A stretch of 64,000 nt of DNA from an uncultured bacterium (GTDB lineage: Bacteria; CAIWAD01). The stretch lies in assembly GCA_903910645.1 (NCBI GenBank), contig CAIWAD010000113.1, positions 45,564 to 109,563 of the forward strand. Reading direction: 5' to 3'. Positions 4,411 to 20,931 of the stretch are shown piece by piece; the stretch's first letter is position 1; the number at the start of each line of letters is the position of its first letter. Both the position numbers and the translations under genes were made by a program. The notes beneath the pieces were generated by a model. It saw nothing but the letters and a program-made list of their open reading frames with translations. It did not search any database and had not been told where the DNA came from.

Positions 4411-4512
4411 ATGCGTTGCCCCAATGTGAACGAGCTGCGGCATGAACAAGAAGAATGCCGATGGTACCTGGGCAGTGTCTCCCTGCAATGCGGGCTGGGC
4501 ATTGTGATCTGA
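4411..4512 (+). CDS. Small ORF (33 aa) with three Cys and a strong RBS
   Basis: AAAGGAGG sits 7 nt upstream of the ATG. Peptide MRCPNVNELRHEQEECRWYLGSVSLQCGLGIVI ends right before the REP-like motif and a terminator. Confidence 0.25.
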   Translation: MRCPNVNELRHEQEECRWYLGSVSLQCGLGIVI

Positions 4513-4535
4513 CCTGGCACCAACCTGGCACCGGA
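4513..4535. repeat. Second copy of the CCTGGCACC-NN-CCTGGCACCGGA module (REP-like)
   Basis: CCTGGCACCAACCTGGCACCGGA, near-identical to 1643-1665. It lies in a convergent intergenic region adjacent to a terminator hairpin. Confidence 0.5.
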
Positions 4536-4546
4536 GCCAAAAAGAA

Positions 4547-4580
4547 AGAGGGCCGGCGATTGCCGGCCCTCTTCTTGTGG
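4547..4580. terminator. Bidirectional terminator hairpin
   Basis: AGAGGGCCGGC-GATT-GCCGGCCCTCT perfect 11-bp stem followed by TCTTGT. Confidence 0.65.
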
Positions 4581-4598: not shown

Positions 4599-6116
4599 CT
4601 ACTGGTTCAGGTAGTTCAGGGCGTTGGTCAGCAGGCTCTTGGCGTAAGCCGGGTTGTGCACACCCATGCTGCCGTCGTTCTTCACGAAGAGGTAGCAATA
4701 CACCGCTTCGCGCCAGGCCGTGTTGGTCCACTCCGGATGGAGGACGGCGCTGGTGAAAGTGGTGCTGGACAGGGAGTCCGTGGGCACCGTGAAGCCAAAC
4801 TGAGCCGTGAAGTAATCTTCAATCTGGCCCATGAGGTTCGCCACTTCCGTCTGGCCACCCACGCCGTTCACACCACCGAAGTCGATGTCGAAGCTGGTGG
4901 CACCATTATGGCAGCTCTGGCAAGCCGTCAGGCTGGCTTCGAAGCTGTGGTCATGAATGGTGTAGCCGTGCGGGGCGCTGGCTTCCATGTGACAGGTCAC
5001 ACAGGGATCCGGCACATTGTTGTGCATGGCCGTGCGGTTGTAGGTGAAGCCCGGGATTTCGTAGGAGCCGGCACCCAGGAACATGTCCATCTGGGGGGAC
5101 TCGTGCGGGCCGCGCAGCAGGCTGAACACGCCGCTGGCGTTGGAGAACACCTGGTCGTTCACATTGGTGAGCGTACGACGGGCGTGGTGGCACTGGGCGC
5201 ACAGCTGGCTGTTGGCACGACCGGTGAAGGTGGTGGCGGTGCCGCCGGCCGGAACATAGACCGTGCTGTAGTCGGCAACGGTGCGCAGCTGGGCTTCGTT
5301 GGTGCCATTGTGCGGGTCGTGGCAAGTGACGCAGCCAACCTGATTCAGGGTGGCGCCGCTCACAGGCGTGGTGCCCGTGTAGTCCGGATCGTAAGCAGCC
5401 AGGAAGCCCTGGGTACCGTGACAGGTCCAGCAGCTGCCACTGTTCCACTCAGCCGAGTAGTCTTCAATGGTCACGCCGGGATTCTTGCCCAGGTGGTCGT
5501 GGGCGCCGCCCAGCCACTCTTCCATCTGGCCTTCATGGCAGGTGGCGCAAGCCGCGTCGTCGCCTTCCGCCGGGTTGGTGGCGAAGGAGATCTCGGGGCT
5601 GTGACCGTACAGGTTCGGGCCCATGCTGCTATGGCAGGACTCGCACTGCACACCCTGCAGGGCATGCAGACGGGCGGTGTCCGCCTCGTCGGCGGCCGGC
5701 CAGAAGTCGTCATAGCCACCGTCGAACATGCCATGGTCCGTGATGGTGGTGTCGCCGTAGGCCACGGGGGCGTCCCAGCCCAGCGTATGGCACTGCAGAC
5801 AGTAGGGATTGTTGGACTGGCCAGCAGCCTCCAGGGTGGCGAAGGCATTGGGATGGCCCGTGCCCGTCCACTCCGTCACCGTCTCCGAGTGACAGGTGTA
5901 GCAGGAGCTTCCATTGTTACCAACCCAGGCCCAGGCGTAAAGATCTTCGCCGTCCTGTCCATTCTGACCGTCCTGACCGTCCTGACCGTCCGCACCAGTC
6001 GGTCCTGCAGGTCCAATGGGGCCAGCGGGACCAACAGCTCCATCCTCGCCGGCACAGCCAACCAGCATGATGCCGGTCAGAACCATTGCAGGCAGCGGTC
6101 GAAGCCACTTCTTCAT
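4599..6116 (-). CDS. Multiheme (9x CXXCH) c-type cytochrome lipoprotein with an N-terminal collagen-like Gly-X-Y stalk
   Basis: Signal peptide with lipobox-like LVGC, 10 consecutive GXY triplets (GPAGPIGPAGPTGADGQDGQDGQNGQDGED), and nine CXXCH motifs. RBS GGAGG 7 nt upstream of the ATG at 6116. Confidence 0.85.
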   Translation of the reverse strand: MKKWLRPLPAMVLTGIMLVGCAGEDGAVGPAGPIGPAGPTGADGQDGQDGQNGQDGEDLYAWAWVGNNGSSCYTCHSETVTEWTGTGHPNAFATLEAAGQSNNPYCLQCHTLGWDAPVAYGDTTITDHGMFDGGYDDFWPAADEADTARLHALQGVQCESCHSSMGPNLYGHSPEISFATNPAEGDDAACATCHEGQMEEWLGGAHDHLGKNPGVTIEDYSAEWNSGSCWTCHGTQGFLAAYDPDYTGTTPVSGATLNQVGCVTCHDPHNGTNEAQLRTVADYSTVYVPAGGTATTFTGRANSQLCAQCHHARRTLTNVNDQVFSNASGVFSLLRGPHESPQMDMFLGAGSYEIPGFTYNRTAMHNNVPDPCVTCHMEASAPHGYTIHDHSFEASLTACQSCHNGATSFDIDFGGVNGVGGQTEVANLMGQIEDYFTAQFGFTVPTDSLSSTTFTSAVLHPEWTNTAWREAVYCYLFVKNDGSMGVHNPAYAKSLLTNALNYLNQ

Positions 6117-6372
6117 GTCACACCTCCAATAAAAAATCGGGTAGCCTTTCCAGCGAACTCCCAAAATGTCGCGCCTTTGTCATCGGATGTCAACCAATCT
6201 GTCAACAATTTTACACTTTTTCACCTTTAATGATATGCTATTATCAATTAATGATCGCGTTGTAAATCAAGATGATAAGATGATTTCATACTATGAAAAT
6301 TCTCTATTCCGTTCATTCTGACTCGCTTTGATGTGCACTTCGGCACGAAACTGAAGCATTCCCATTACGAAA

Positions 6373-7175: not shown

Positions 7176-7646
7176 ATGAAGAAGATCCTGGCCATCCTCA
7201 CCGGTGCCCTCGTGGTGTTCGCACTGGTTCAAAGCACTCCTGCCCTGGCCGGCGCCGGCTGCTGCCCCAAGGGCGAGAAGACCGCCAAGGCCTCCTCCTG
7301 CGGCGCCCCCGGTGCCGATGCCGCCCACGCCTCCAAGACCTGCACGGTGGACGGCAAAACCACCACCTGCACCATGAACGCCGATGGCAGCTGCAGTTTC
7401 CCCGCCGGCACGGTGGACCCCGCCACGGCCAAGGATGGCCTGAAGACCTGCGTGGTGGACGGCAAGACCGTCACCTGCAAGGTGAGCGCCGACGGCTCCT
7501 GCAGCATGAAGGGCGCCGAGGCTTGCCACGGTGCCGCCGCTGCCGCCAAGGGTTCCTGCTCCATGCCCTGCACCCCCGGCGCCGGCTGCCCGAGCAAGGC
7601 CGCCAAGGCCGTGAACAAGGATCCTTTCAAGGCCAGCGGCCTCTGA
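7176..7646 (+). CDS. Secreted Cys-rich protein (15 Cys) with a duplicated ~22-aa module
   Basis: Signal peptide MKKILAILTGALVVFALVQSTPALA. Repeats KTCTVDGKTTTCTMNADGSCSF and KTCVVDGKTVTCKVSADGSCSM, plus CC and C-x-C pairs. Confidence 0.6.
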   Translation: MKKILAILTGALVVFALVQSTPALAGAGCCPKGEKTAKASSCGAPGADAAHASKTCTVDGKTTTCTMNADGSCSFPAGTVDPATAKDGLKTCVVDGKTVTCKVSADGSCSMKGAEACHGAAAAAKGSCSMPCTPGAGCPSKAAKAVNKDPFKASGL

Positions 7647-7852: not shown

Positions 7853-8449
7853 ATGCAGGCAGTTGACCGCTTCCTTCGCGTAGGTCTGCCGCTGACCGTC
7901 GTGAGCGTGCTCATCACGGTCATCCTGGTAGGCTGGAACACCCAACCGGACCGCTACCACATTGGTTATGCGCCGGAGCAGCCCATTCCCTACTCCCACA
8001 AGGTGCACGCCGGGGACAACCACATCCCTTGCGAGTACTGCCACACGGGAGCCCGCCAGGGACGACACGCCATGGTGCCGGCGGTGGAGGCCTGCTTCAA
8101 GTGCCACAACCTTACGCGCACGGACAGCCCGCACATCCAGCGCCTGAAGGCCGCCCTGGATGCCGGCCAGGCCTTCCCCTGGAAGCGCATCCACGACCTG
8201 CCCGACCATGTGTACTTCGACCATCGGCCCCATGTGGGCCTGGGCATCGCCTGCCAGGAATGCCACGGTCCAGTGGAGACCATGGAAGTGGTGGAGCAGG
8301 TGCTGAACATGCGCATGGGCGCCTGCCTTGAGTGCCATCGCGGCCAGCGCCAGTGGTCCACGCCCGTGCCCGCTCCCCGGGCGGACATGGTGCAGGTGGC
8401 TTCCGGCCACCCCACCGGCCCCACCAGTTGCAATGCCTGCCATCGTTGA
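7853..8449 (+). CDS. actA: Alternative Complex III pentaheme cytochrome c subunit
   Basis: N-terminal TM helix plus five CXXCH motifs (CEYCH, CFKCH, CQECH, CLECH, CNACH). First gene of the actABCDEF cluster. Confidence 0.85.
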   Translation: MQAVDRFLRVGLPLTVVSVLITVILVGWNTQPDRYHIGYAPEQPIPYSHKVHAGDNHIPCEYCHTGARQGRHAMVPAVEACFKCHNLTRTDSPHIQRLKAALDAGQAFPWKRIHDLPDHVYFDHRPHVGLGIACQECHGPVETMEVVEQVLNMRMGACLECHRGQRQWSTPVPAPRADMVQVASGHPTGPTSCNACHR

Positions 8450-8476
8450 CATGAACTTCCTGGAGGTTCCGTGCAG

Positions 8477-8674
8477 ATGACGCACACCACCCGGCGACAG
8501 GCCCTGGGAACCCTGGGAGGCCTGCTGGCCGCCCTGGCGCTCTTCCTGGTGCCCGGCTCCAGTGCCCTTGCGGCGCTGCGCAAGCCGGCCGCCACGCCGC
8601 GGACATCCGCTCCGGCCAAGGGCGAAGCGCCCGTGGTCCGGCCGCCCCAACATTCGGTGAGCCGCCATGGCTGA
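8477..8674 (+). CDS. Small (65 aa) putative Tat/Sec-signal protein between actA and actB
   Basis: GGAGG 9 nt upstream of the ATG at 8477. Sequence MTHTTRRQALGTLGGLLAALALFLVPGSSALAAL... has a twin-Arg motif plus a hydrophobic helix. Confidence 0.35.
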   Translation: MTHTTRRQALGTLGGLLAALALFLVPGSSALAALRKPAATPRTSAPAKGEAPVVRPPQHSVSRHG

Positions 8675-11600
8675 TCACACCCCTTCATCGCCGCGCTTCT
8701 GGCGCAGCCGGGCCGAGCAGGCCGCCGATCCCGCCTTCCAGGAACCGCTGCAGCGCGAGTTCGAGCCGAACAGCGCCCACCAGCCGGAAGATCCCGCCGC
8801 GGGCATGTCCCGCAGGCGCTTCCTGGGCTTGCTGGGAGCCTCCGCCGCCTTGGCGGCAGGGGCCGCTGGCTGTGGCCGAAACATCGACCGCGGAGACATT
8901 GTGCCCTACACGCGCCGCCCGGAGGATGGCCTTCCCGGGCGTGCCATGTGGTATGCCACCAGCAGCGCGGAAGCCTGCTGGGTCTTCCCCTTGCTGGTGA
9001 AGACCCGGGAATCGCGACCCATCCTCATTGAAGGCAATGACAGCCATCCCGACTCCCTGGGAGCCGCCCCCATGCGGGCCCAGGCGGAATTGCTGGGCCT
9101 TTACGATCCCGAGCGCCTGCAGGCACCGGCCAAGGCGGGGGCCACGGAGTCGTGGGACAACGCCCTGGCCGCCCTGGCGTCCGGAATGGGCAAAGGCAAG
9201 AGCCTTCTGCTCACGGGCGCCGTGGTGTCGCCATCCCGCCAGGCCCTGCTGGAGCGTTTGGCCCAGAGCTATCCCGGCGTGGAAATCCACTGTTGGGAAG
9301 CCGCCGCGCCCCATGGTGCCCTGGCCGCCAGCCAGCAATTGGGCGCCGGCCAGTTGCTGCCGCGCCTGAACCTGGAAAAGGCCCGGGTGGTGCTCAGCCT
9401 GGAAGCCGAGCTTTTCGCGGGTGAGGGAGATCTTCCCCGACAGATCCGCGCCTTTGCTGCCGCGCGTCGGCCGTTGACCCACGGGGAGGCCACGCCTGAA
9501 GGCATGAACCGCCTGTGGGCGGCGGAATCCCGCATGACTTTGACCGGCGGCAAGAGTGATCATCGCCTGGCCCTGCGCTCCAGCGCGCTGCCCGCCCTGG
9601 CTTTCGCCCTGGCCCGCCGACTGAACGAACTGGGGTTGGCCTGGCCCGGCGCGCCGTTGTCCGCGCCCTCCCTGGCGGAATTCGCCAAGGCGGAAGGCCT
9701 GGATGGCAAGCTGTTGGAGTTATTGGCCCAGGATCTGAAGCAGGCTGGCCCCGCCGCCGTGGTGGTGGCCGGCAACCAGGGCAGCGCCGCCCTTCATGGC
9801 GCGGCCTTGGTGCTGAACCGCATGCTGGGTGCCGAGGGCAATACCTTCAGCTGGCGTCCTGCCGCCTTGCGCCCCCTGGCCTCCCACGCGGAAATGTCCC
9901 AGCTGGGCAAGCGGCTCCAGGCGGGGGAATTCGCCACCGTGGTGCTGGCCGGCGTGAATCCTGTCTACGATGGCCCGGCGGGGCTGGATTGGGCCAAGGC
10001 CCTGTCCGGCGCGGGCGAGCGCTTCCACCTTGGCCTTTTGCCCGACGAGAGCGCCGCCGCCTGCACATGGTCCCTGCCCCTGAACCATTGGCTGGAATGC
10101 TGGGGCGACCACATGGGCGGCCTCCTGCAACAGCCTGTGGTGGCTCCCCTTTACGACACCCGCGCCCTGGACGAAATTCTGCTGAACCTGCTGGCCAAGG
10201 GTGGCCAAAGCGTTCCCGCGGATGGCTTGTCCTGGCTGAAGGGGCTCTGGCAGGCTGAGTACGCCCGCCAGGGCAGCCCGCTGGCTTTTGACGCCTTCTG
10301 GCATGCCTCGCTACAGCAGGGCTTCAGCGCCACGGCCTTCCCCGCTGCCCCCGCGCCTGTTCTTTCCGCTGGCGCCCTCACGGCCTGGTCCGCGCCCATG
10401 GCCGCCTCCAAGCTGGAATTGACGCTTCATGCGGACCGCCGCCTCTTCGATGGACGCGGCGCCAACATCGGCTGGCTGCAGGAGCTCCCGGATCCCGTGA
10501 CCAAGTGCACCTGGGGCAATCCTTTGTCAATTGCCCCGGCGGACGCCAAGGCCCAAAGTTTGAAGGACGGCGACCGCGTCATGTTGTCAAGCGGCGCCCA
10601 GTCGCTGGAGTGCACCGTGCTGGTGCAGCCCGGCCAGAAGGTTGGCACTTGCGCCCTGGCCCTGGGCCATGGACGCACGGCCTTGTCGGTGGCGGAAGGC
10701 ATCGGCGTGAACGCCTTCACCCTGATGCAGGGCGGCGCCACCTTGCTGCCCAATGTGAGCCTGGCCAAGGCCACCACCACCGCCATGACCCACACCACCC
10801 AGGAACACCAGCTGATGGAAGGCCGCGACATTGTGCGCAGCCTGCCGCTGGCCTCCTTTGCCGCCGGCGAGACCGGCGCACCTTCCCATGGCGCCCACGC
10901 GGGTGGCCAAAGTGAAGGGAAGGGTGCTGAGCATGGTGCCGCCGCCGCAGCCGCCCTGGCCACGGGTCGGGACCATGGATTGAAACAGAAGGAAGAGGCT
11001 CCCCTGACCCTGTACCCGGACCACGAGTACCTGGGCCACAAATGGGGCATGGCCATTGACCTTAGCGCCTGTGTGGGCTGCGCCGGTTGCGTTATTGCCT
11101 GCCAGGCGGAGAACAACATTCCCACTGTGGGCCCAGAGCGCGTGGACGAAGGCCGCGAAATGCACTGGATCCGCATCGACCGCTATTACGAGGGCGATGA
11201 GGAGAATCCGGACATGGTCTTCCAGCCCATGTTGTGCCAGCACTGCGACCACGCCCCCTGCGAGAATGTCTGCCCGGTGGCCGCCACCACGCACAACGAG
11301 GAAGGTCTGAACCAGATGACCTACAACCGTTGTGTGGGCACGCGCTACTGCGCCAACAACTGCCCCTACAAGGTGCGCCGCTTCAACTACTTCAGCTACA
11401 CGGGTGAACTGGCCGCCGTGCTGCAGCTGGCCGCCAATCCGGAAGTGAGTGTGCGTCCTCGTGGTGTCATGGAGAAGTGCACGTTCTGCGTGCAGCGCAT
11501 CAACGAGGCCAAGAATCAGGCCAAGGCCGAGGCGCGCCCGCTGGTGGATGGGGAAATCAAGCCCGCCTGCGCGGTGGCCTGCGCCGCCGGCGCCATCACT

Positions 11601-11753
11601 TTCGGCGATTTGAACGCCGACAGCGAGGTGGCGCGCCTGTCCCAGGCCGACCGTCGTTACAAAGTGCTGGAAGAACTGGGAGTGAGGCCCGCCGTGACCT
11701 ACCTGGCCGAACTGCGCAACCCCCTTGCCGCCGGAGGCGCCCATGAGTCATGA
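8667..11753 (+). CDS. actB: Alternative Complex III subunit B (molybdopterin-oxidoreductase-like domain + 4Fe-4S ferredoxin domain)
   Basis: Tat motif [22 protein letters not shown], a large MopB-like region, and a C-terminal Cys-cluster region ([42 protein letters not shown]). The start could alternatively be the ATG at 8805. Confidence 0.9.
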
Positions 11754-13125
11754 GGCCGTGCTGGCCGAGATCCGGCCCAAGCCCCTGGTGGTGGGGGAAG
11801 TCAGCCTGGGAGCCGTGGACGATGCCGTCTACGCCCCCATGGAATCCAAACCGCCCATGGTGTGGTGGGTGGCCCTGGCCTTCACCAGCGCCCTCATGCT
11901 CCTGGGCTTCGCCCTGATTGGCTACACGTTCTACGAAGGCATTGGCGTGTGGGGCAACAACGACCCGGTCTTTTGGGGCTGGGACATCACCAACTTCGTC
12001 TTCTGGGTGGGCATCGGCCACGCCGGAACCCTCATCAGCGCCGTGCTCTTCCTGTTCCGGCAGCGCTGGCGCAACGCCATTGCCCGCCTGGCGGAGGCCA
12101 TGACCATCTTCGCCGTGATGTGCGCGGCCATTTACCCCGCCATCCATGTGGGCAGGCCCTGGTTCGCCTTCTGGCTCTTCCCCTATCCCAACCAGCGCGG
12201 CATGTGGATCAATTTCAACAGCCCACTGGCCTGGGATGTCTTCGCGGTGAGCACCTACTTCACCGTCAGCCTCTTCTTCTGGTATGTGGGTCTTATCCCG
12301 GACCTGGCCAGCGCCCGGGACCGCGCCACGGGCAAGGTGCAGAAGGCCGTGTTCGGCGCCTTGAGCCTGGGCTGGCGCGGTGCCGCCCGGCACTGGACCC
12401 ACTATGAAAAGGCCTACATGATCCTGGCCGGCCTGGCCACGCCGCTGGTGCTCAGCGTGCACAGCATCGTGTCCTTCGACTTCGCCACCAGCGTCATCCC
12501 CGGCTGGCACACCACCATTTTCCCGCCTTACTTCGTGGCGGGCGCCGTGTTCAGCGGCTTCGCCATGGTGGTCACCGTGCTGGTCTTCGTGCGCAAGATC
12601 ATGCGCCTGGACCACCTCATCACCCTGGACCACATGGAAGTGATGAACAAGGTGATCCTTACCACGGGCTCCATTGTGGGTTACGCCTACGGCATGGAGT
12701 TCTTCATTGCCTGGTACGGCGGCGTGCCCGCCGAGCACTATGTCTTCATGAACCGCGCCACGGGCCCCTACGCCTGGGCCTACTGGACCATGGTCAGCTG
12801 CAACGTGATCTTCCCCCAGCTCTTCTGGTTCCGCAAGATCCGCCGCAGCATCGTGGCCATGTTCATCATTTCCATTTTTGTGAACATCGGCATGTGGTTC
12901 GAACGCTTCGTGATCATTGCCACCAGCCTGCACCGGGATTACCTGCCCAGCGCCTGGGGCTACTTCCGCCCCACACTGGTGGACATGGGCATCTTCGCCG
13001 GAACCTTCGGCCTTTTCTTCACCATGATCCTGCTCTTCAGCCGCACCCTGCCGGTGATTGCCACGGCGGAGCTGAAAGCGGTGCTTCCCGGCGCGCAGCC
13101 CGGCCATGGAGGTCATCATGAGTGA
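11743..13125 (+). CDS. actC: Alternative Complex III NrfD/PsrC-like membrane subunit
   Basis: Polytopic membrane protein of the NrfD family. GGAGG RBS, and it overlaps the actB stop. Confidence 0.9.
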
Positions 13126-14299
13126 TCGTCCCTTCCTGGTGCTGGGCCTGTTCCAGGACGCCGACAAGCTGGTCCACGGCATTCGTGCCCTGAAATCGAC
13201 CTACGGCGACAAGCTGGAAGCCTACACGCCCTATCCCATCCACGGGATCGAGAAGGAACTGGGCATTCCAAAATCCCATGTGGGGAAAATCGTCCTCGCC
13301 CTGGGATTGTCGGGCCTGACCCTGGCCCTGGGTTTCCAGAGCTGGGTGTTCACCACGGACTACCAGATCCAGTTCGGCGGCAAGCCCTACTTCAGTTGGG
13401 CCAGCTTCGTGCCCATTGTGTTTGAAGTGACCGTGCTGCTGGCCTGCATTGTGGGCGCCGTGTTCGGCATGCTGGTGTTGGTGAACAAGCTGCCGCACTA
13501 CTCGCACCCCATCCTGTCCAGCCGCAGCATGCCCAAGATCACGCGGGACCGCTTCGCCCTGGCGGTGAGCGTGGACACGGCGGAGGACGCCGCCCGCGCC
13601 GAGGCCGCCCTGCGCCAGGCCGGCGCGCCGGAAACAGAAGTGGTGCACGGCACGGACGAAATTGGATCCGGCCCCTTGCTGCCGCTGAAGCCCGTGCTGG
13701 CCACGGTGATCATCTGCGTGCTGGCGGGTCTGGGCACCTGGCACCTGCAGCGGTTATGGAACAAGCTGCCGCTCATCTCCATCATGGATGAGCAAACCAA
13801 GGTGCTGCCCTTCCGCGCCAACGCCTTCTACCCCGACGGCCAGTCCATGCGCCCGCTGGTGCCGGGCACCGTGTCGCGCAGCGCCGAGTACGCCGCCTGG
13901 ACCACGCCGGAGGAAGCCGGTCAAATGCTGGTCAACCCCCTGTCGGCGGACAGCCTGACTCTTGCCAAGGGTCGCCGGGGCTATGAAACCCATTGCCTGG
14001 TATGCCACGGCCAGTTGGGCGATGGCACGAAACTGCTGAGCGACAAATACACGGGCGCTCCCGCCAACCTGCACCAGGCACGCTTGAAGGAAGCCCCGGA
14101 CGGTCACCTGTTCGCGGTGGTCACCGCCGGCAAGAACACCATGGCCGGTTACGGCAAGGACATTCCCGCCGCCGACCGCTGGGCCATTGTGCACTATGTG
14201 CGCGTGCTGCAGCGGGCCCTGGACGCCAGCGACGCCGATGTCCAGGCGGCCCAGGCCGTGGCTGCGGCCGCGCCTGTTGCCCAGGGAGGAAGCCACTGA
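13118..14299 (+). CDS. actDE: Fused ActD (DUF3341 membrane subunit) and ActE (monoheme cytochrome c)
   Basis: N-terminal half is ActD-like ([25 protein letters not shown]...). C-terminal half carries the single CLVCHG heme motif typical of ActE. It is one continuous ORF. Confidence 0.8.
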
Positions 14300-15450
14300 T
14301 GGGCAAGACCATGCTACCCAAGTTGATGGCCGGTCTGGGCCTGCTGGGCGTGATTGGCGCCTGGTTTGCCGGGGATTCCGCCCGTTTCAGCGCCAACTGG
14401 TTCGTGTGGAGCATCCTGCTCCTGGCCGTGGCCCTGGGTTCCCTGTTCATCGTTGCGCTGGAGCACCTGACCCGCGCCCAGTGGAGCATTGTGTTGCGCC
14501 GCGTGCCGGAACGCCTGTCGGGCCTCCTGCCCGCTCTGGCCGTTGTATTTGCCATTGGCGCGGCCCTGGGCCTTGCCGGGAATTTCGGTTGGTCCACCCC
14601 GGCCTTCCGTGAAGCCCTGGCCACAGAGCCCCACCTGCATGGCAAGGCCATCTGGTACAGCTCGCCCTTCTTCATTGGCCGTCTGGTCTTCATTTTTGCC
14701 GTGTGGCTCATGAGCTGGAAGCTCCTGGCCGGTGGCAGCATGAAGCAGGATGAGACGAAAGATCCGCGCTTCAGTCTTTTCGCCAAGCGCTTCAGTGCGC
14801 CTTTCATGTGGCTCTTCGCCATTAGCGTCACGGTGTTGACGGTGGACTGGCTCATGGGCATGAGCCCGCGCTGGTTCAGCACCATCTTCGGCGTCTACGG
14901 CTTCTCGGGCATCTTTCTGAGCGGTCTGGCGGCCACGGTGCTGGGCATCCTGCACCTGAAGAAGCAAGGCCGCCTCCAGGAAGTGCGTCCGGACCACTTG
15001 TACAGCCTGGGCGGGTTCCTGTTCGCCTTTACGGTGTTCTGGGCTTACATCGCTTTCAGCCAGTTCATGCTCATCTGGTACGCCAACCTGCCGGAAGAGA
15101 CCTTCTGGTTCCACACCCGCCTGACGGGTGGCTGGTACCCGGTCACCTTCATCCTGCCCATCCTGCGCTTCATCGTGCCCTTCTTCGCCCTGCTTTCGCG
15201 GGAAGTGAAGATGGATGCCCGTCGCCTGTCCCTCGTGGCGGTGCTGGTGCTGGTGGGCCAGGCCCTGGACCTGTACTGGCTGATTGTCCCGGAACTGGGT
15301 CGTGGCGTGCTCTTCGGCTGGCAGGAAGTGGCCTTCGGCCTCTTCTTCACGGGCCTGGGACTTAGCCTGGCGGAAGCCCGCATGAATGTGGGCAAGGACC
15401 TGCCGGAAGGCGACCCCAATCTGGACGCCAGTCTTCATTATCACCTGTAG
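14299..15450 (+). CDS. actF: Alternative Complex III second NrfD-like membrane subunit
   Basis: Polytopic membrane protein paralogous to ActC. GGAGGA RBS, and TGATG overlap with actDE. Confidence 0.85.
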   Translation: MGKTMLPKLMAGLGLLGVIGAWFAGDSARFSANWFVWSILLLAVALGSLFIVALEHLTRAQWSIVLRRVPERLSGLLPALAVVFAIGAALGLAGNFGWSTPAFREALATEPHLHGKAIWYSSPFFIGRLVFIFAVWLMSWKLLAGGSMKQDETKDPRFSLFAKRFSAPFMWLFAISVTVLTVDWLMGMSPRWFSTIFGVYGFSGIFLSGLAATVLGILHLKKQGRLQEVRPDHLYSLGGFLFAFTVFWAYIAFSQFMLIWYANLPEETFWFHTRLTGGWYPVTFILPILRFIVPFFALLSREVKMDARRLSLVAVLVLVGQALDLYWLIVPELGRGVLFGWQEVAFGLFFTGLGLSLAEARMNVGKDLPEGDPNLDASLHYHL

Positions 15451-15459
15451 GAAGCAGTC

Positions 15460-16335
15460 ATGGCGCAACCTGAACGCAACAGCATTCTCCCCACCCTGGC
15501 CTGGAGCCTGGCCATCCTCTTGGCCATGGGCATCTTCTTCGGCCTGCTGGTGGGTCCGGCCCTGACAAAGGGCGGCGCGGGCACGGCCCACGGCTATCTG
15601 CCTCCCCAGGCGCCCACGGACCTGACGGAGTTCGATGCGGTGAAGGGCCGTCAGGCGCCGGGCATCAACCTGGGTCAGGCCGTGGCGGGTGATCCTGCAC
15701 TGAAGACCTGGGCCAAGGATGAATACGGCAAGATCTGCGTGGCCTGCCATGGACCCGCGGGCAAGGGCGATGGCCCCGCCGGTCTGGCCCTGCAGGCGCG
15801 CAACTTCACGCTGAACGAGGCCTGGAAGAACGGGCCCAAGCTCACGCAGATCTTCCAGACGCTGAGCAAGGGTTTGCCGCCCAAGATGCCCGCCTACGAC
15901 ACCTACACCCCGGCCCAGCGGCTGGCGCTGGCCCATGTGGTGCAGGGCTTCATGGCCTTCCCCAAGCCGGCGGCCAGCGCGGCGGAGGTGGCGGCCATGG
16001 ACGCGGAATTCAGTCTCAGCGCAGGCGTGCGGGATCCCGGACGCGTAAGCGTAAGTGTGGCCGCCCAGCGCGTGGCCCAGGAAAGTCAGGCCACAAGCTT
16101 GAATGTGGAGGCCCTGCCAGCCGATCTGCGCCATCTGGTGCGTCATGCGGCCAAGGCCGGCCAGACCCTGGTGGGCCTGAAGGGCTTGAGCGGCGCCAAT
16201 TGGACGGCGGCCCTGCATGCGGGAGCACCGGCCAACGGCTTCTCTCCGGCGGTGGGGGCTCTGGGCGGCGCCGATTGGCAGCGTTTGAACGCGGCCCTGG
16301 CGGTGGCCACCCAGGCCGGCACCAGCACCAACTAG
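15460..16335 (+). CDS. Membrane-anchored class I monoheme cytochrome c
   Basis: N-terminal TM helix and one CVACHG motif. Sits between the ACIII and oxidase modules, so it is the likely electron carrier. Confidence 0.7.
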   Translation: MAQPERNSILPTLAWSLAILLAMGIFFGLLVGPALTKGGAGTAHGYLPPQAPTDLTEFDAVKGRQAPGINLGQAVAGDPALKTWAKDEYGKICVACHGPAGKGDGPAGLALQARNFTLNEAWKNGPKLTQIFQTLSKGLPPKMPAYDTYTPAQRLALAHVVQGFMAFPKPAASAAEVAAMDAEFSLSAGVRDPGRVSVSVAAQRVAQESQATSLNVEALPADLRHLVRHAAKAGQTLVGLKGLSGANWTAALHAGAPANGFSPAVGALGGADWQRLNAALAVATQAGTSTN

Positions 16336-16342
16336 GCAGCTC

Positions 16343-16376
16343 AGGCGGCTGCGGTCCTGGACCCGGCCGCCTTTTT
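16343..16376 (+). terminator. Hairpin with a T-run between the cytochrome c gene and sco1 (possible partial terminator/attenuator)
   Basis: AGGCGGC...GCCGCCT followed by TTTT. The loop is long (16 nt), so confidence is low. Confidence 0.3.
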
Positions 16377-16436
16377 CCTGCCTCGCAAGTTCGTCTGGAC
16401 TAAGTTTGTTGATTGAATAACAAGTCAGGAGAACCC

Positions 16437-17306
16437 ATGGCCCCTTCCCCCCCTTTCCGACGATGGGTGCCCATCGTCCTGTTGGTGGCCAGCCTTGCCG
16501 CCTTCCCAGCCCGGGCCGCGCAGCCCGCGGCGGAGGAGGACAAGGCCGGCGTGTTTTTCGATGAGCATCTGGGACAGGTCCTGCCCGGCGATGTGTTGCT
16601 GCGCGACGAAGCGGGCAATCCCGTGCGGCTGGACTCCCTGGTGGACAAGCCCACCATCTTGAACTTCGTCTACTTCGATTGCCCCGGCGTGTGCACGCCC
16701 CTGCTGAACGAAGTGGCGGACATCCTGGGCAAGACGGACCTGGATCCGCGCAAGGAGCCCTTCCAGATCCTGACGGTGAGTTTCGAGCCCCGGGACACGC
16801 CGGAGGTGGCGTCCGAGAAGCGCGCCAATTATCTGGCCATGCTCAGCCGCCCCCTGCCCCAGGAGAGCTGGCGCTTCCTGACCGGCGACGCGGAACCGCT
16901 GGCGCGCCTCACCAAGGCCGCGGGCTTTTCCTACAAGAAGGCCGGCTTTGAATATGTGCATCCCGGCGGGCTCATCCTGCTGGCGCCAGACCGCACCATT
17001 GTGCGCTATCTCTACGGCACCAAGTTCCTGCCCTTCGATTTCAAGATGGGCATCGCCGAAGCCGCAAAGGGACATGTGCTTCCCACCACGGCACGCCTGC
17101 TCACCATCTGCTTCAGCTACGACCCCGAGGGCCGCACCTATGTCTTCAACACCATGCGCGTGGTGGGCAGCAGCATGCTGCTGACGGTGGGCCTCTTCGC
17201 CGGCTTCCTGGCGGTCACCCAGAAGCGCGGCAGCCGTGGCCTGGGCCGCAAAGCCCGCCAGGACAACACAGCAACCACCAGCACCCAGAATCGGGAGGAC
17301 GCATGA
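16437..17306 (+). CDS. SCO1/SenC copper chaperone (thioredoxin-like)
   Basis: CPGVC motif (FDCPGVCTPLLNEV), an N-terminal signal/anchor, and AGGAGA RBS. Confidence 0.85.
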   Translation: MAPSPPFRRWVPIVLLVASLAAFPARAAQPAAEEDKAGVFFDEHLGQVLPGDVLLRDEAGNPVRLDSLVDKPTILNFVYFDCPGVCTPLLNEVADILGKTDLDPRKEPFQILTVSFEPRDTPEVASEKRANYLAMLSRPLPQESWRFLTGDAEPLARLTKAAGFSYKKAGFEYVHPGGLILLAPDRTIVRYLYGTKFLPFDFKMGIAEAAKGHVLPTTARLLTICFSYDPEGRTYVFNTMRVVGSSMLLTVGLFAGFLAVTQKRGSRGLGRKARQDNTATTSTQNREDA

Positions 17307-18931
17307 CGGACAAGGCCAGCGGAGCCACCCCTCCGCGCGGATTTTACGGGCCGGAAGGCGGCGGGGGAGGTCTCCTCTCCTGGGTCTTCTCCACGGACCA
17401 CAAGCGCGTGGGTCTGCTCTACCTCTACTCGCTCCTGAGCTTCTTCGCCATCGGGGCCATCCTGGGCCTTACCATGCGCGCGGAGCTCCTGATGCCCGGC
17501 CAGCAATTGGTCAGTCCCCGGGTTTACAACAGTCTCTTCACCCTGCACGGCGTGATCATGATCTTCCTGTTCATTGTGCCGGGCATTCCCGCCATCATGG
17601 GCAACTTCATGCTGCCCTTGCAGATTGGCGCGGAGGATGTGGCCTTTCCCCGCCTGAATCTGGCCAGCTGGTGGGTGTACATGGTGGGCGCCTTCCTGGC
17701 CGTCACCAGCCTGTTCAGCGGCGGCGGCGCTCCGGACACGGGCTGGACCTTTTACGCGCCTTATTCCATCCGCACCAACTCCAATGTGAGCCTGGCCGTG
17801 CTGGCGGCCTTCATCCTGGGCTTCAGCAGCGTGCTCACGGGCATCAACTTCATCACCACCATCCACCGCATGCGGGCCAAGGGCATGGGATTCTTCCGCA
17901 TGCCGCTCTTCGTGTGGAGCCTTTACGCCACCAGCTGGATCCAGGTCATCGCCACACCGGTGGTGGGCATCACTCTGGTCCTGGTGGTGCTGGAGCGATT
18001 GCTGGGCATTGGCTTCTTTGATCCGGCGGCAGGCGGTGATCCCATCCTCTACCAGCACCTTTTCTGGATTTACAGCCATCCCGCCGTGTACATCATGATC
18101 CTCCCCGCCATGGGTGTCATCAGCGAAATCCTGCCCACTTTTTCCCGGCGCACCATTTTCGGCTACAAGGCCATCGCCATGAGCAGCATGGCCATTGCTG
18201 GCGTGGGCTACCTGGTGTGGGGGCATCACATGTTCACCACGGGCATGAGCGACACCAGCCGCGTGGTGTTCAGCCTCATGACCTTCCTTGTGGCCATCCC
18301 CACAGGCATCAAGATTTTCAACTGGGTGGCCACGCTCTACAGGGGCAGCATCAGTCTTGAAAGCCCCATGCTTTACGCCATGGCCTTCATCTTCCTGTTC
18401 AGCATCGGCGGCCTGACGGGTCTGGTGAACGGCGCCCTGTCCACGGACATCCATGTGCACGACACCTACTTCGTGGTGGGCCACTTCCACTATGTGATGT
18501 TCGGCGGCACGGGCATTGCCCTGTTCGCCGCCCTCCACTATTGGCTGCCCAAGATCAGCGGCCGCATGGTGAATGAGAAGAAAGCCAAGCGCGCCTTCTG
18601 GCTGGTGGTCATTGGCTTCAACCTGCTCTACTTCCCCATGCTGGTGCTGGGCATCATGGGCATGCCGCGCCGTTACCACGATTACCTGCCCATTTTCCAA
18701 ACGCCGCATGTGATCAGCACCATCGGCTCCTGGGTCATTGCCACGGGTCTTGTGCTCATGTTCTGGAATCTGTGGAGCAGCGCCCGCCGGGGCGCCCTGG
18801 CGGGGAACAACCCCTGGGGAGGCACAACGCTGGAATGGCAGACCACCAGCCCGCCGCCCACGCTGAACTTCGACGCCCCCGTCACGGTGACGGCCGGCCC
18901 CTACGAGCGCGGTGAAGGGAGAACGGCATGA
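17303..18931 (+). CDS. ctaD: Cytochrome c oxidase subunit I
   Basis: 12-TM heme-copper oxidase subunit I with conserved His ligands (e.g. GHFHYV, HHMF). ATGA overlap with sco1. Confidence 0.95.
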   Translation: MTDKASGATPPRGFYGPEGGGGGLLSWVFSTDHKRVGLLYLYSLLSFFAIGAILGLTMRAELLMPGQQLVSPRVYNSLFTLHGVIMIFLFIVPGIPAIMGNFMLPLQIGAEDVAFPRLNLASWWVYMVGAFLAVTSLFSGGGAPDTGWTFYAPYSIRTNSNVSLAVLAAFILGFSSVLTGINFITTIHRMRAKGMGFFRMPLFVWSLYATSWIQVIATPVVGITLVLVVLERLLGIGFFDPAAGGDPILYQHLFWIYSHPAVYIMILPAMGVISEILPTFSRRTIFGYKAIAMSSMAIAGVGYLVWGHHMFTTGMSDTSRVVFSLMTFLVAIPTGIKIFNWVATLYRGSISLESPMLYAMAFIFLFSIGGLTGLVNGALSTDIHVHDTYFVVGHFHYVMFGGTGIALFAALHYWLPKISGRMVNEKKAKRAFWLVVIGFNLLYFPMLVLGIMGMPRRYHDYLPIFQTPHVISTIGSWVIATGLVLMFWNLWSSARRGALAGNNPWGGTTLEWQTTSPPPTLNFDAPVTVTAGPYERGEGRTA

Positions 18932-19554
18932 GCGACACCACCCTGGCCCATGGTGCACATGCTCCGCACAAGGACTACGAAGGCGCAAAGACGGGCATGT
19001 GGATCTTCCTGTTCACGGAACTCCTGCTCTTCGGCGGCCTGTTCCTGGTGTACTCGGTCTATCGCACCCTGTACACCCATGACTTCCACCTGGCCGCCGG
19101 GCACCTGAATGTGCCACTGGGCGTCACCAACACCTTCGTGCTCCTCACCAGCAGCCTGACCATGGTGCTCTCCGTGACGGCCCTGCAAAAGGGTGACCGC
19201 CAGAGCGCCCTGAACACACTGGGCTGGACGCTCTTCCTGGCCGGGCTCTTCCTGGTGATCAAATTCTTCGAATGGAGCGCCAAGATCGAGCACGGCCTCT
19301 ACCCCGGCTCACCCGTGCTGAAGTCCCTGCCCGCCGGCGAGGGCCTCTTCTACGGCCTCTATTTCGTCATGACCGGTCTGCACGGCTTCCATGTCATTGT
19401 GGGAATGATCCTCCTGAGCGTCATCGCCTTCCAGGTGAAGAGCGGGCGCGTCCACCAGGGAGACTTCGTGAAGCTGGAGAACGCGGGCCTCTACTGGCAC
19501 CTGGTGGATCTGGTGTGGATCTTCCTTCTGCCTCTTTTCTACCTCACCAACTGA
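18928..19554 (+). CDS. ctaE: Cytochrome c oxidase subunit III
   Basis: Subunit III-like membrane protein. ATGA overlap with ctaD. Confidence 0.9.
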   Translation: MSDTTLAHGAHAPHKDYEGAKTGMWIFLFTELLLFGGLFLVYSVYRTLYTHDFHLAAGHLNVPLGVTNTFVLLTSSLTMVLSVTALQKGDRQSALNTLGWTLFLAGLFLVIKFFEWSAKIEHGLYPGSPVLKSLPAGEGLFYGLYFVMTGLHGFHVIVGMILLSVIAFQVKSGRVHQGDFVKLENAGLYWHLVDLVWIFLLPLFYLTN

Positions 19555-19880: not shown

Positions 19881-19889
19881 GAGCTCGCC

Positions 19890-20783: not shown

Positions 20784-20931
20784 ATGTGGACAGGGCCCCT
20801 TCCGGCCCGCGCCGGGAGGGGCCCGCACTTCACAAGATCTGCCGGGTGGCATTTGCAGATCATGACAGGGGTCGGACGATTCGTGGACAGGCAAACCCAT
20901 GGGGAAGCGTCCACCAGCTTGAGGGAGCACC

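What the first reader, a model, noticed from the sequence alone, without database searches (positions are those of the whole stretch)
4599..6116. Nonaheme c-type cytochrome lipoprotein carrying a collagen-like (Gly-X-Y)x10 stalk
Right after a lipoprotein-type signal (…LVGC) the protein has ten uninterrupted G-X-Y triplets (GPAGPIGPAGPTGADGQDGQDGQNGQDGED), encoded by the GTCCTGACC DNA repeats at ~5950-5990. Nine CXXCH heme motifs follow. Bacterial collagen-like segments trimerise, so this could be a trimeric, stalked multiheme electron-transfer module projecting from the membrane, which is an unusual architecture for a cytochrome. It sits convergent to a small accessory cluster (DUF2089-like, SHOCT-like, Cys peptide) and divergent from a rubrerythrin-like gene, with an AT-rich upstream region (6180-6330) containing two TGTCAAC direct repeats.
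Basis: seen in the sequence. Interest (0 to 1): 0.65.

Follow-up and report, generated by a model that had tools for sequence, protein, structure and literature searches.

The report
Collagen-stalked nine-haem lipoprotein cytochrome
This gene encodes a lipid-anchored nine-haem electron-transfer protein held on a collagen-like Gly-X-Y stalk, and the same anchor-stalk-haem layout turns out to be common, but apparently undescribed, among bacterial multihaem cytochromes whose characterised relatives work at the cell surface.

Summary

The stalk is a family trait. About 109 of 113 close homologues with a recognisable lipobox carry 4-21 triplets starting at Cys+2. Pro dominates the X position, and the tracts are acidic with almost no Lys or Arg. 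Close strain variants change X/Y residues but never a Gly or the tract length.

The same module sits on 105 of 120 OmcA/MtrC-family decahaem proteins surveyed. Shewanella MtrC itself has five triplets. A haem-blind DNA scan for the motif returned multihaem cytochromes in 31 of 40 complete ORFs. In some orthologues the gene heads an operon with a predicted 22-strand outer-membrane barrel and further cytochromes.

My best reading is a selected, extended spacer and tether for a lipid-anchored, probably outer-surface, electron-transfer head. Trimerisation into a true triple helix is untested and doubtful for this acidic, Pro-poor tract. I found no literature on this architecture. I rate it a new variant of a known kind, of moderate interest.

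The parts
4599..6116 (-). Complete CDS, 505 aa: lipoprotein precursor of a stalked nonahaem c-type cytochrome
   Evidence: An identical protein (P0001) is found on 13 contigs.
6057..6116 (-). Signal peptide, aa 1-20 (MKKWLRPLPAMVLTGIMLVG), ending in the lipobox L-V-G before Cys21
   Evidence: Read from the sequence. Cys21 and Gly20 are invariant or nearly invariant in the 64-sequence alignment.
6054..6056 (-). Cys21, the predicted lipidated N-terminal residue of the mature protein
   Evidence: Lipobox LVGC. Invariant column C21.
5943..6050 (-). Collagen-like stalk: 12 uninterrupted Gly-X-Y triplets (aa 23-58), with 8 Asp/Glu, no Lys/Arg and 4 Pro
   Evidence: Pfam PF01391 scores 29.1 bits against a 27.2 cut-off. 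None of 2000 shuffles reaches the run length. AlphaFold2 pLDDT is below 50 for aa 20-59.
5950..5991 (.). 9-bp tandem DNA repeat (consensus CCGTCCTGA on the + strand, 4.7 copies) encoding the GQD/GAD triplets
   Evidence: Tandem Repeats Finder.
4602..5942 (-). Nonahaem head, aa 59-505. CXXCH motifs at aa 72-76, 106-110, 158-162, 190-194, 229-233, 262-266, 306-310, 372-376 and 399-403. OcwA/OmhA-type fold.
4605..4856 (-). C-terminal three-helix region (aa 421-504) of the NrfA/OcwA type, including the conserved ...NDGSxGVHNPxY... motif
   Evidence: Model helices H421-440, H466-481 and H489-504. Pfam Cytochrom_C552 matches only this part of the protein, profile positions 230-372. Alignments to OcwA and NrfA.
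6123..6127 (-). Shine-Dalgarno-like GGAGG, 6 nt upstream of the ATG
   Evidence: Read from the sequence. Conserved in L083.
6161..6195 (-). Conserved upstream block GGTTGACATCCGATGACAAAGGCGCGACATTTTGG. It contains the proximal TTGACA-like hexamer and is a likely promoter or operator.
   Evidence: Conserved between the window and L083, whose proteins are only 57% identical. It lies in the 33%-GC spacer.
4545..4574 (-). Intrinsic-terminator-like hairpin (13 bp, 9 G-C pairs) followed by a T-run, directly after the stop codon
   Evidence: With the promoter region, it makes the gene a separate transcription unit.

Best explanation
Shown by the sequence and homology: the gene encodes a lipoprotein whose lipidated Cys21 is followed, after one residue, by a 36-residue strictly periodic Gly-X-Y tract. 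After the tract comes a 447-aa nine-haem c-type cytochrome head of the OcwA/OmhA type, within the NrfA/cytochrome c554 superfamily.

Inferred, step 1: the Gly-X-Y tract is a selected, extended, strongly acidic spacer with a collagen-like or polyproline-II conformation. It would be about 10 nm long at 0.29-0.31 nm per residue. It tethers the haem head to a membrane while holding it off the anionic membrane or LPS surface, giving a lipid-anchored redox head a defined reach.

Inferred, step 2: the acidic start of the tract (C-A-G-E-D-G here; C-[E/S]-G-[D/E]-x-G in the family) is part of a sorting determinant shared with OmcA/MtrC-type surface cytochromes. The protein is therefore most likely anchored in the outer membrane and exposed at the cell surface.

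Inferred, step 3: the head accepts electrons from a membrane-proximal partner and passes them to acceptors that cannot reach the membrane, such as minerals, polymers or other cells. It may also reduce small N-oxyanions, as OcwA does weakly in vitro.

Whether three chains wind into a true triple helix is left open. I put that at roughly one in three for this protein.
For: Architecture.

The stalk is under selection:
- In 109 of 113 close homologues with a recognisable lipobox, the first Gly of the run is at Cys+2.
- Among the 105 homologues matching the strict C-x-(GXY)n pattern, there are 4-21 triplets, while the spacer to haem 1 stays at 12-15 aa, so all length change is in whole triplets.
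- X is Pro in 54% of triplets; Y is Q/E/A/D.
- There are 0.52 acidic and 0.04 basic residues per triplet.
- Variants at 90% identity or more keep 12 triplets and every Gly, yet carry 6 substitutions in 37 stalk residues against 5 in the other 447 (Fisher p = 5e-5).

The module recurs on other surface-type cytochromes:
- 105 of 120 OmcA/MtrC-family homologues have a lipobox Cys followed by 4-27 triplets.
- S. oneidensis MtrC reads ...LTGC-G-GSD-GNN-GND-GSD-GGE.
- Both families share acidic +4/+5 positions.
- A haem-blind scan for DNA encoding C-x-G-D-D-G-x-x-G-P-x-G-P gave 71 of 81 hits in a lipobox context, and 31 of 40 unique complete ORFs were multihaem.

Context in orthologues: in L005, L006 and L087 the stalked gene heads a co-directional cluster. 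It is followed by a conserved protein predicted as a signal peptide plus a 22-strand beta-barrel, whose Foldseek hits are only outer-membrane barrels. Then come 11-, 7- and 4-haem cytochromes.

More distant relatives carry Asp-rich linkers of the Bacteroidota surface-export type (the export signal is defined in PMC5080379). The window organism encodes a type IX secretion substrate.
Against: No outer-membrane barrel or other multihaem gene except ActA lies within the 64-kb window. The conserved neighbours in this lineage are alternative complex III and a caa3 oxidase, which fits a periplasmic role equally well.

Elsewhere the gene usually stands alone.

The query's +2/+3 residues (Ala, Gly) do not match the experimentally defined Bacteroidota export signal, which needs K, Q or S before the acidic pair. 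No sorting rule is known for this phylum.

A collagen-like or polyproline-II rod does not conduct electrons, so a rigid 10-nm spacer needs either a hinge or partners at the same height.

The register could in part be a by-product of 9-bp repeat expansion.

Nothing here is experimental. Haem attachment, lipidation, location and function are all inferred.
Confidence: 0.55

Rival explanations
1. The Gly-X-Y tract forms a true collagen triple helix, so the mature protein is an obligate homotrimer with 27 haems on a rigid, roughly 10-nm stalk. The helix would be nucleated by three adjacent lipid anchors and/or by a trimeric haem head. This is nested within the best explanation rather than exclusive of it.
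For: Gly periodicity is strict and uninterrupted across more than 100 diverged orthologues, and all indels are whole triplets.

Pro strongly prefers X over Y (54% against 11%). The common X and Y residues are, as I recall the published host-guest scales, among those favourable for a triple helix.

Pfam Collagen scores above its gathering cut-off.

Related octahaem enzymes HAO and MccA are homotrimers built through the same C-terminal helices (my own knowledge; the helices are described in PMC6703420).

Precedents exist. The (GAS)n collagen-like domain of Burkholderia Bucl8 sits on a trimeric outer-membrane protein and forms a triple helix (PMC7682875). N-terminal lipidation stabilises short synthetic triple helices (Yu, Tirrell and Fields 1996 and 1998, listed in the references of PMC3505660).
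Against: The tract has a net charge of about -8 per chain, no basic residue to form ion pairs, and only 4 Pro in 36 residues.

The family median is 7 triplets and the minimum 4. That is too short for an autonomous helix without hydroxyproline.

MtrC carries a 5-triplet version in the same register and occupies a 1:1:1 complex with MtrA and MtrB (PDB 6R2Q; my own knowledge). OcwA is a monomer/dimer mixture.

The Lol pathway carries lipoproteins one at a time, so assembly would have to happen after membrane insertion.

Single-chain AlphaFold2 says nothing either way (pLDDT below 50).
Confidence: 0.3
2. The protein is a periplasmic, membrane-tethered redox protein of the aerobic or microaerobic chain. 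It would be anchored in the inner membrane or the inner leaflet of the outer membrane. It would either carry electrons between alternative complex III and a partner, or act as an NrfA-like reductase or oxidase for nitrite, hydroxylamine or a similar small molecule. The stalk would set its height within the periplasm.
For: Synteny with ACIII-caa3 is conserved in three lineages whose proteins are 46-100% identical.

glnA lies 1.5-4.5 kb from the gene in those lineages and also in a distant genome, where a P-II gene is present as well.

The C-terminal half is NrfA-like. OcwA reduces nitrite and hydroxylamine in vitro.

No porin-cytochrome genes are in the window. The +2 residue is Glu in 72-77% of homologues, depending on how the lipobox set is defined. 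In E. coli an acidic +2 residue (Asp) retains lipoproteins in the inner membrane (my own knowledge).
Against: The gene is its own transcription unit, separated from ACIII by two unrelated genes, an AT-rich promoter region and a terminator.

Outside this lineage there is no ACIII linkage.

The nearest structural relatives are surface reductases, not NrfA. There is no CXXCK motif, and the NCBIfam NrfA model scores 15.5 against a cut-off of 595.

The identical N-terminal module is found on OmcA/MtrC-type proteins, which are surface-exposed in Shewanella.
Confidence: 0.25
3. The Gly-X-Y tract is only a neutral, flexible, low-complexity lipoprotein linker. Its periodicity reflects slippage of 9-bp repeat units, and neither its conformation nor its length matters.
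For: A 9-bp tandem repeat underlies part of the tract.

Triplet number varies 4-21 between lineages.

One full-length orthologue (P0065) lacks the tract. Distant relatives use other linkers or Ig/PKD-like domains instead.

Many lipoproteins have disordered N-terminal tethers (my own knowledge).
Against: The X/Y residues are diverse and fast-evolving, while Gly and tract length are fixed among close variants. Recent slippage would produce the opposite pattern.

The tract is retained in about 96% of orthologues, and always starts at Cys+2.

The same design recurs on unrelated haem domains in other phyla, and is strongly enriched on multihaem proteins: 31 of 40 in a haem-blind scan.
Confidence: 0.15
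4. The collagen-like tract is primarily an adhesin or ligand-binding element, for mineral, polymer or cell-cell attachment, as in the streptococcal Scl, Legionella Lcl or Bacillus BclA proteins.
For: Weak NCBIfam similarity to the SclA/SclB/Lcl collagen-like adhesins, far below their cut-offs. The acidic tract could chelate metal cations.
Against: The tract is buried between the lipid anchor and the head, not at the distal tip. It is short. Similarity to the adhesins is limited to the Gly-X-Y repeat itself.
Confidence: 0.05

Closest known systems
OcwA (Thermincola potens, PDB 6I5B) and OmhA (Carboxydothermus ferrireducens, PDB 6QVM): cell-surface nona- and undecahaem terminal reductases
   Different: OcwA and OmhA come from Gram-positive bacteria. 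No lipoprotein or collagen-like feature is mentioned in the papers describing them. Identity to the query is only about 25-29%. The query comes from a high-GC bacterium whose nearest syntenic relative is a contig labelled Delongbacteria, and it is a lipoprotein with a Gly-X-Y stalk. The catalytic His pairs near haems 2 and 5 could not be checked here.
OmcA/MtrC-family decahaem outer-surface lipoproteins (Shewanella MtrC, PDB 7QTH, 6R2Q)
   Same: A lipobox Cys is followed by an acidic Gly-X-Y tract in the same register. MtrC has 5 triplets, and 105 of 120 environmental homologues have 4-27. The likely role at the cell surface is the same.
   Different: The haem domain has a different fold, with two pentahaem domains and two beta-barrel domains. 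The query's head matches OcwA, not MtrC, and no OmcA/MtrC NCBIfam model matches it. MtrC's own tract has no Pro.
NrfA (pentahaem) and ONR (octahaem) cytochrome c nitrite reductases
   Different: There is no CXXCK catalytic motif. The query has nine haems. It scores far below the NCBIfam NrfA cut-offs, at 15.5 against 595. It is a lipoprotein with a stalk.
Bacterial collagen-like proteins (Scl1/Scl2, BclA, Lcl, Burkholderia Bucl8)
   Same: Uninterrupted Gly-X-Y repeats without hydroxyproline, with Pro favoured in X. Repeat number varies between lineages. In Bucl8 a collagen-like domain is attached to a membrane-embedded protein.
   Different: Those proteins usually have 20 to more than 80 triplets, mixed charges, and a known or inferred trimerisation domain. 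They act as adhesins or surface fibres. Here there are 12 triplets (family median 7), the tract is purely acidic, it lies between a lipid anchor and a redox enzyme, and triple-helix formation is unproven.
Geobacter PgcA: extracellular trihaem lipoprotein with (Pro-Thr)n tethers
   Same: A lipoprotein cytochrome whose haem modules are spaced by Pro-rich repetitive tethers, and which is implicated in reaching insoluble Fe(III) oxides (PMC5732950).
   Different: The repeats are PT(x) rather than Gly-X-Y. They lie between single-haem domains rather than between the anchor and one large head. There is no homology.

Membership tests
Bacterial lipoprotein (signal peptidase II substrate) | Positively charged n-region, hydrophobic h-region, and lipobox [LVI][ASTVI][GAS]C | tested here: met
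   MKKWLR-PLPAMVLTGIM-LVG-C21. Cys21 is invariant and Gly20 nearly invariant in 64 sequences.
Collagen triple-helix repeat (Pfam PF01391) | Uninterrupted Gly-X-Y repeats that score above the Pfam gathering threshold | tested here: met
   12 triplets, aa 23-58. 29.1 bits against a 27.2 cut-off. None of 2000 shuffles reaches the run.
Collagen triple-helix repeat (Pfam PF01391) | Three chains assemble into a triple helix | not testable with these tools
   Only single-chain AlphaFold2 was available, and the stalk has pLDDT below 50. Composition argues against a stable homotrimer: 8 acidic, no basic, 4 Pro.
Collagen triple-helix repeat (Pfam PF01391) | An adjacent domain that trimerises and nucleates the helix | tested here: inconclusive
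   The head has the C-terminal helices that mediate oligomerisation in NrfA (dimer), HAO and MccA (trimers). Its closest relative OcwA is a monomer/dimer mixture.
OcwA/OmhA clade of multihaem cytochromes | Nine colinear CXXCH motifs and significant profile similarity | tested here: met
   hmmsearch of the family profile against the PDB gives 6i5b at E 5e-21. The printed stretches align seven of the nine motifs (haems 1 and 3-8) in order.
OcwA/OmhA clade of multihaem cytochromes | Globular haem domain plus C-terminal three-helix bundle, with a best fold match to OcwA/OmhA | tested here: met
OcwA/OmhA clade of multihaem cytochromes | Two five-coordinate catalytic haems (2 and 5) with neighbouring distal His residues | not testable with these tools
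   The models contain no haem. The family keeps invariant His at 88, 206, 269, 338 and 487, plus nearly invariant 365 and 390. The consensus HFGPH is LLRGPH in the query, so one His of the pair is absent.
OcwA/OmhA clade of multihaem cytochromes | Cell-surface location and reduction of insoluble Fe(III) | not testable with these tools
   Only indirect evidence is available. Porin-cytochrome-like operons occur in orthologues, and the N-terminal module is shared with OmcA/MtrC.
NrfA cytochrome c nitrite reductase | CXXCK catalytic haem motif, five haems, and a score above the equivalog cut-off | tested here: not met
   All nine motifs are CXXCH. NF008339 scores 15.5 bits against 595, and TIGR03153 and TIGR03146 are far below their cut-offs.
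OmcA/MtrC decahaem family | Ten haems in two pentahaem domains alternating with two beta-barrel domains | tested here: not met
Bacteroidota-type surface lipoprotein export signal | A polar or positive residue followed by at least two Asp/Glu within +2 to +6 (C-X-K-(D/E)2, SDDDD, SDDFE) | tested here: inconclusive
   The query reads C-A-G-E-D-G. It has the acidic pair at +4/+5 but no K, Q or S before it. In the family, +4 is D/E in 77% of sequences and +5 in 45%. The signal definition is from PMC5080379 and is untested outside Bacteroidota.
Porin-cytochrome extracellular electron conduit (as the extracellular partner) | Adjacent genes for an outer-membrane beta-barrel and periplasmic multihaem cytochromes | tested here: not met
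   Not met in the window: there is no barrel homologue and no multihaem ORF other than ActA. It is met in orthologues L005, L006 and L087, which have a predicted 22-strand barrel and 11-, 7- and 4-haem genes.

The most novel reading that the evidence does not exclude
Collagen triple helices act as molecular stalks for respiration. Three lipid anchors nucleate a short, acidic, hydroxyproline-free triple helix. This turns OcwA-like and OmcA/MtrC-like cytochromes into trimeric heads of 27-30 haems, held a genetically set distance (about 3-25 nm, by triplet number) above the outer membrane. This would be a general, phylum-spanning and so far unrecognised way for bacteria to get electrons past LPS, capsule or S-layer to minerals and partner cells.
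Probability: 0.25. Interest if true: 0.8.

Novelty: new variant of a known kind. Interest (0 to 1): 0.55.

Why it matters
How electrons travel the last nanometres from the outer membrane to insoluble acceptors is a central open question in extracellular electron transfer. The same is true of how lipid-anchored cytochromes get clear of the LPS layer. Structural work has routinely removed or failed to resolve the N-terminal linker of MtrC and OmcA (my own knowledge).

The data here show that a strictly periodic, acidic Gly-X-Y tract directly after the lipid anchor is the rule in two unrelated families of multihaem lipoproteins. It extends from 5 Pro-free triplets in Shewanella MtrC to 27-30 Pro-rich triplets in Myxococcota and others.

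That gives a concrete, testable variable, which is stalk length and register. It also gives a simple sequence signature for finding candidate surface cytochromes in metagenomes of poorly known phyla.

If the tracts do form triple helices, this would be a new functional class of bacterial collagen, and a design principle for engineered electroactive cell surfaces.

Tried and rejected
1. NrfA or nitrite reductase, the name some databases give to homologues. Rejected: no CXXCK motif, nine haems, and NCBIfam scores far below cut-off.

2. An MtrC/OmcA head. Rejected by the fold searches.

3. UshA-like selenoprotein NF041198, the top NCBIfam hit at 65 bits against a cut-off of 275. It covers only a short haem segment and was ignored.

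4. The TGTCAAC direct repeats as a regulatory feature. The heptamer is at chance frequency across the window. Only the proximal copy and the block after it are conserved in L083. I kept this as a likely promoter or operator and nothing more.

5. An operon with the DUF2089/SHOCT or rubrerythrin-like genes. The terminator, the AT-rich spacer and the convergent orientation make the cytochrome gene a separate unit. The synteny is specific to this lineage.

6. Rampant length polymorphism of the BclA type. Not seen: all full-length members of the 90% cluster have 12 triplets. The members of 495 and 422 aa are N-terminal miscalls or fragments.

7. A direct test of trimerisation. This was not possible, because the structure tool folds single chains and only accepts unmodified sequences.

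8. A PDB sequence search with the L039 MtrC-like protein did not cover the N-terminus. I replaced it with a search using the MtrC N-terminus itself.

9. Literature. No paper in the searchable library combines collagen-like sequences with multihaem cytochromes. The search for 'collagen' plus 'decaheme' gave four papers, and the only relevant one mentions collagen in passing when discussing PgcA circular dichroism. The library is open-access only, so the absence of a description is not proof.

10. Pfam and NCBIfam gave nothing for the conserved 422-aa neighbour. Structure prediction resolved it as a beta-barrel.
Full report
**1. What is in the sequence**

On the minus strand an ORF runs from the ATG at 6116 to a stop at 4599-4601, encoding 505 aa. 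A GGAGG lies 6 nt upstream of the ATG. The 300-bp spacer upstream is AT-rich, at 33% GC against a window mean of 64%. A 13-bp hairpin followed by a T-run sits directly after the stop, at 4545-4574. The gene is therefore its own transcription unit.

The product starts MKKWLRPLPAMVLTGIMLVGC, a textbook lipoprotein signal. After Cys21 and Ala22 there are twelve uninterrupted Gly-X-Y triplets, aa 23-58. Nine CXXCH motifs follow.

The run is far beyond chance. None of 2000 shuffles of the region reaches it, and Pfam Collagen scores above its gathering cut-off. Part of the tract is encoded by a 9-bp tandem repeat at 5950-5991.

The exception is that the rubrerythrin-like gene is co-directional with the cytochrome gene, not divergent.

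**2. What the haem domain is**

Pfam and NCBIfam return only generic multihaem families and a partial match to the C-terminal half of NrfA. All specific NCBIfam models fall far below their cut-offs.

A profile built from 64 homologues finds OcwA (PDB 6I5B) at E 5e-21. The printed stretches align seven of the nine CXXCH motifs in order.

OcwA and OmhA are the cell-surface terminal reductases of two thermophilic Gram-positive bacteria. OcwA reduces Fe(III) oxides and, slowly, nitrite and hydroxylamine (PMC6703420; bioRxiv 10.1101/2022.02.24.481543). Neither paper mentions a lipoprotein or collagen-like feature.

The head is therefore an OcwA-type nonahaem module. It is neither a nitrite reductase nor an MtrC.

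**3. Is the stalk a quirk or a trait?**

The family is large. In a library of representatives clustered at 50% identity, 834 reach E of 1e-30 or better and 2815 reach 1e-10.

Among the 120 closest homologues (37-62% identity), nearly every full-length sequence has a Gly-X-Y run starting exactly at Cys+2. This holds for 109 of 113 sequences with a recognisable lipobox.

Among the 105 that match the strict C-x-(GXY)n pattern, triplet number ranges from 4 to 21 with a median of 7. The distance from the end of the run to the first haem motif stays at 12-15 residues. All length change is therefore in whole triplets.

Pro occupies 54% of X positions but only 11% of Y positions. Y is mostly Gln, Glu, Ala or Asp. 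The tracts carry 0.52 acidic and only 0.04 basic residues per triplet.

Members of the query's own 90%-identity cluster all keep 12 triplets and every Gly. Yet they differ at 6 of 37 stalk residues, against 5 of the other 447 (Fisher p = 5e-5).

That pattern means that register and length are constrained while side chains are free. It is the opposite of what a recently slipped, neutral repeat would show.

Only about a tenth of the homologues carry a precomputed Pfam Collagen hit, because most tracts are too short to score. This probably explains why annotation has missed the feature.

More distant relatives, at 33% identity or less, lack the tract. They carry Ig/PKD-like domains or Asp-rich linkers instead.

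**4. The module is not confined to this family**

In 1.38 Mb of fetched loci, all 22 ORFs with a lipobox Cys followed by five or more triplets are multihaem cytochromes. They include several other architectures:
- stalk, then a CarboxypepD_reg-like domain, then nine haems, in Myxococcota and Anaeromyxobacter, with up to 30 triplets;
- a five-haem protein in a Bacteroidota genome;
- two OmcA/MtrC-family proteins in one locus.

A search with one of those OmcA/MtrC-family proteins showed that 105 of its 120 homologues have 4-27 triplets after the lipobox. Shewanella oneidensis MtrC itself reads ...LTGC-G-GSD-GNN-GND-GSD-GGE, which is five Pro-free triplets in the same register (PDB SEQRES). Both families share an acidic first triplet, C-[E/S]-G-[D/E]-x-G.

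As a test that does not depend on haem content, I scanned metagenome contigs for DNA encoding C-x-G-D-D-G-x-x-G-P-x-G-P.
- 71 of 81 matches lie in a signal-peptide and lipobox context.
- Of 40 unique ORFs complete at their 3' end, 31 have four or more CXXCH motifs.
- 26 of those 31 are decahaem.

The anchor, acidic start and Gly-X-Y tract are thus a strong, though not exclusive, hallmark of multihaem lipoproteins.

**5. Genomic context**

In the window the gene lies 1.7 kb from a cluster encoding alternative complex III and a caa3 oxidase. This order is conserved in two related lineages whose proteins are 57% and 46% identical to the query. The order is: ACIII, a Cys-rich secreted protein, a rubrerythrin-like gene, the cytochrome, SHOCT/DUF2089, then glnA. 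One of the two lineages is on a contig labelled Delongbacteria and has two tandem stalked paralogues.

Elsewhere the gene mostly stands alone.

In three other orthologues (L005, L006, L087; about 40% identity, all stalked) the gene heads a co-directional cluster. It is followed by a conserved 386-422-aa protein and then by 11-, 7- and 4-haem cytochromes. AlphaFold2 folds that protein as a signal helix plus 22 beta-strands (pLDDT 77). Foldseek matches only outer-membrane barrels. This is the layout of a porin-cytochrome conduit, with the stalked lipoprotein as the likely external partner.

No such barrel or cytochrome set is present in the 64-kb window.

**6. How it most likely works**

The following are shown: a lipobox, a periodic acidic Gly-X-Y tract under constraint, an OcwA-type nonahaem head, and recurrence of the module on surface-type cytochromes.

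The following are inferred:
- The tract is an extended spacer, about 10 nm here and about 3-18 nm across the family, at 0.29-0.31 nm per residue (my own knowledge).
- It tethers the head to the membrane but keeps it off the anionic surface. The head can then reach acceptors that cannot approach the membrane, or swing between a membrane-proximal donor and a distal acceptor.
- The shared acidic start may be a sorting signal. It resembles, but does not match, the Bacteroidota surface-export signal (PMC5080379).

I put this composite reading at about 0.55.

The location is its weakest part. The ACIII-caa3 synteny and the absence of a conduit in the window leave a periplasmic, membrane-tethered role quite possible (about 0.25).

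**7. Trimer or not**

In favour of a trimer:
- the strict register;
- the asymmetric use of Pro;
- relatives that trimerise through the same helices (HAO and MccA; my own knowledge);
- the precedent of Bucl8 (PMC7682875);
- the known stabilisation of short triple helices by N-terminal lipid tails (references in PMC3505660).

Against a trimer:
- a net charge of about -8 per chain with no basic partner, and only four prolines;
- a family median of seven triplets;
- monomeric MtrC in the MtrCAB complex despite the same kind of linker (my own knowledge);
- OcwA being a monomer/dimer mixture.

No tool available here can fold three chains. I rate a true triple helix for this protein at about 0.3.

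**8. Novelty and verdict**

The head is a new, diderm, lipoprotein member of a known clade. The collagen-like stalk is a conserved feature. I could not find it described for any cytochrome in the open-access library.

Even so, it is widespread in sequence databases, and a short version sits in the best-studied surface cytochrome, MtrC.

I classify the finding as a new variant of a known kind. Interest is moderate, at 0.55. It would rise to about 0.8 if the tracts prove to be triple helices that set the reach of trimeric multihaem heads.

Noticed in passing
window 4411-4512 (+): A 33-aa ORF, MRCPNVNELRHEQEECRWYLGSVSLQCGLGIVI (three Cys), lies between the SHOCT-like gene and the shared terminator hairpin. 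A gene of 33 or 41 aa is called at the same position in L002 and L084, so it may be a real small protein of the DUF2089/SHOCT cluster.
   Followed up: partly
window 7176-7646 (+): A secreted 156-aa Cys-rich protein with two KTCxVDGKTxTCxxxADGSCS repeats. It has no Pfam match, and only a far-below-cutoff NCBIfam hit, even at permissive thresholds. A 150-177-aa gene with no Pfam hit holds the same position between ACIII and the rubrerythrin-like gene in L083 and L084.
   Followed up: partly
window 7853-21819 (+): A complete alternative complex III (pentahaem ActA, a 65-aa ORF, the 1028-aa ActB, NrfD-like ActC, and ActD/E-like genes). It is directly followed by SCO1, COX1, COX3, a COX2-cytochrome c fusion and haem O synthase, forming an ACIII-caa3 respiratory supercluster.
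   Followed up: partly
window 23345-24313 (-): A protein with an Ig-like domain and a type IX secretion C-terminal sorting domain (Por_Secre_tail). It indicates an FCB-group-type outer-membrane secretion system in this organism.
   Followed up: no
window 4512-4532: An exact 11-bp direct repeat (ACCTGGCACCA, 1.9 copies) lies just beside the terminator hairpin at 4545-4574. The hairpin sits between two convergent genes and could terminate both.
   Followed up: no
L087 9654-10919; also L006 12279-13544 and L005 13816-14973: A conserved 386-422-aa protein with no Pfam family is predicted as a 22-strand outer-membrane beta-barrel. It lies immediately downstream of stalked nonahaem genes and upstream of 11-, 7- and 4-haem cytochromes. 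This is a candidate new porin family of porin-cytochrome conduits in FCB-group bacteria. Weak homologues sit next to unstalked relatives in L010 and L028, with a further weak match elsewhere in L013.
   Followed up: yes
L039 (5333-6820, 8666-11431, 15655-17889): Three different stalked multihaem lipoproteins lie in one 21-kb locus of a deltaproteobacterial MAG: a pentahaem and a decahaem protein of OmcA/MtrC type, and an 889-aa OcwA-like nonahaem protein with extra Ig-like domains.
   Followed up: partly
L084 8001-9464 and 10232-11686: Two tandem stalked paralogues (13 and 12 triplets) lie on a contig labelled Delongbacteria, in the same synteny as the window. If the tracts do trimerise, this raises the possibility of heterotrimers.
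   Followed up: no
PDB 7QTH/7O7G SEQRES (S. oneidensis MtrC), residues 25-41: The archetypal surface cytochrome MtrC has five Gly-X-Y triplets (GSD GNN GND GSD GGE) directly after its lipobox Cys, in the same register as the window protein.
   Followed up: yes
L001 16779-21518 (beyond the window's left edge): Next to the two-component system at the window's left edge lies a cluster encoding two proteins without Pfam hits, a PqqD-like protein, an ATP-grasp protein, an Orn/DAP decarboxylase and a UT/peptidase M23 protein. It may be a peptide-modification cluster.
   Followed up: no
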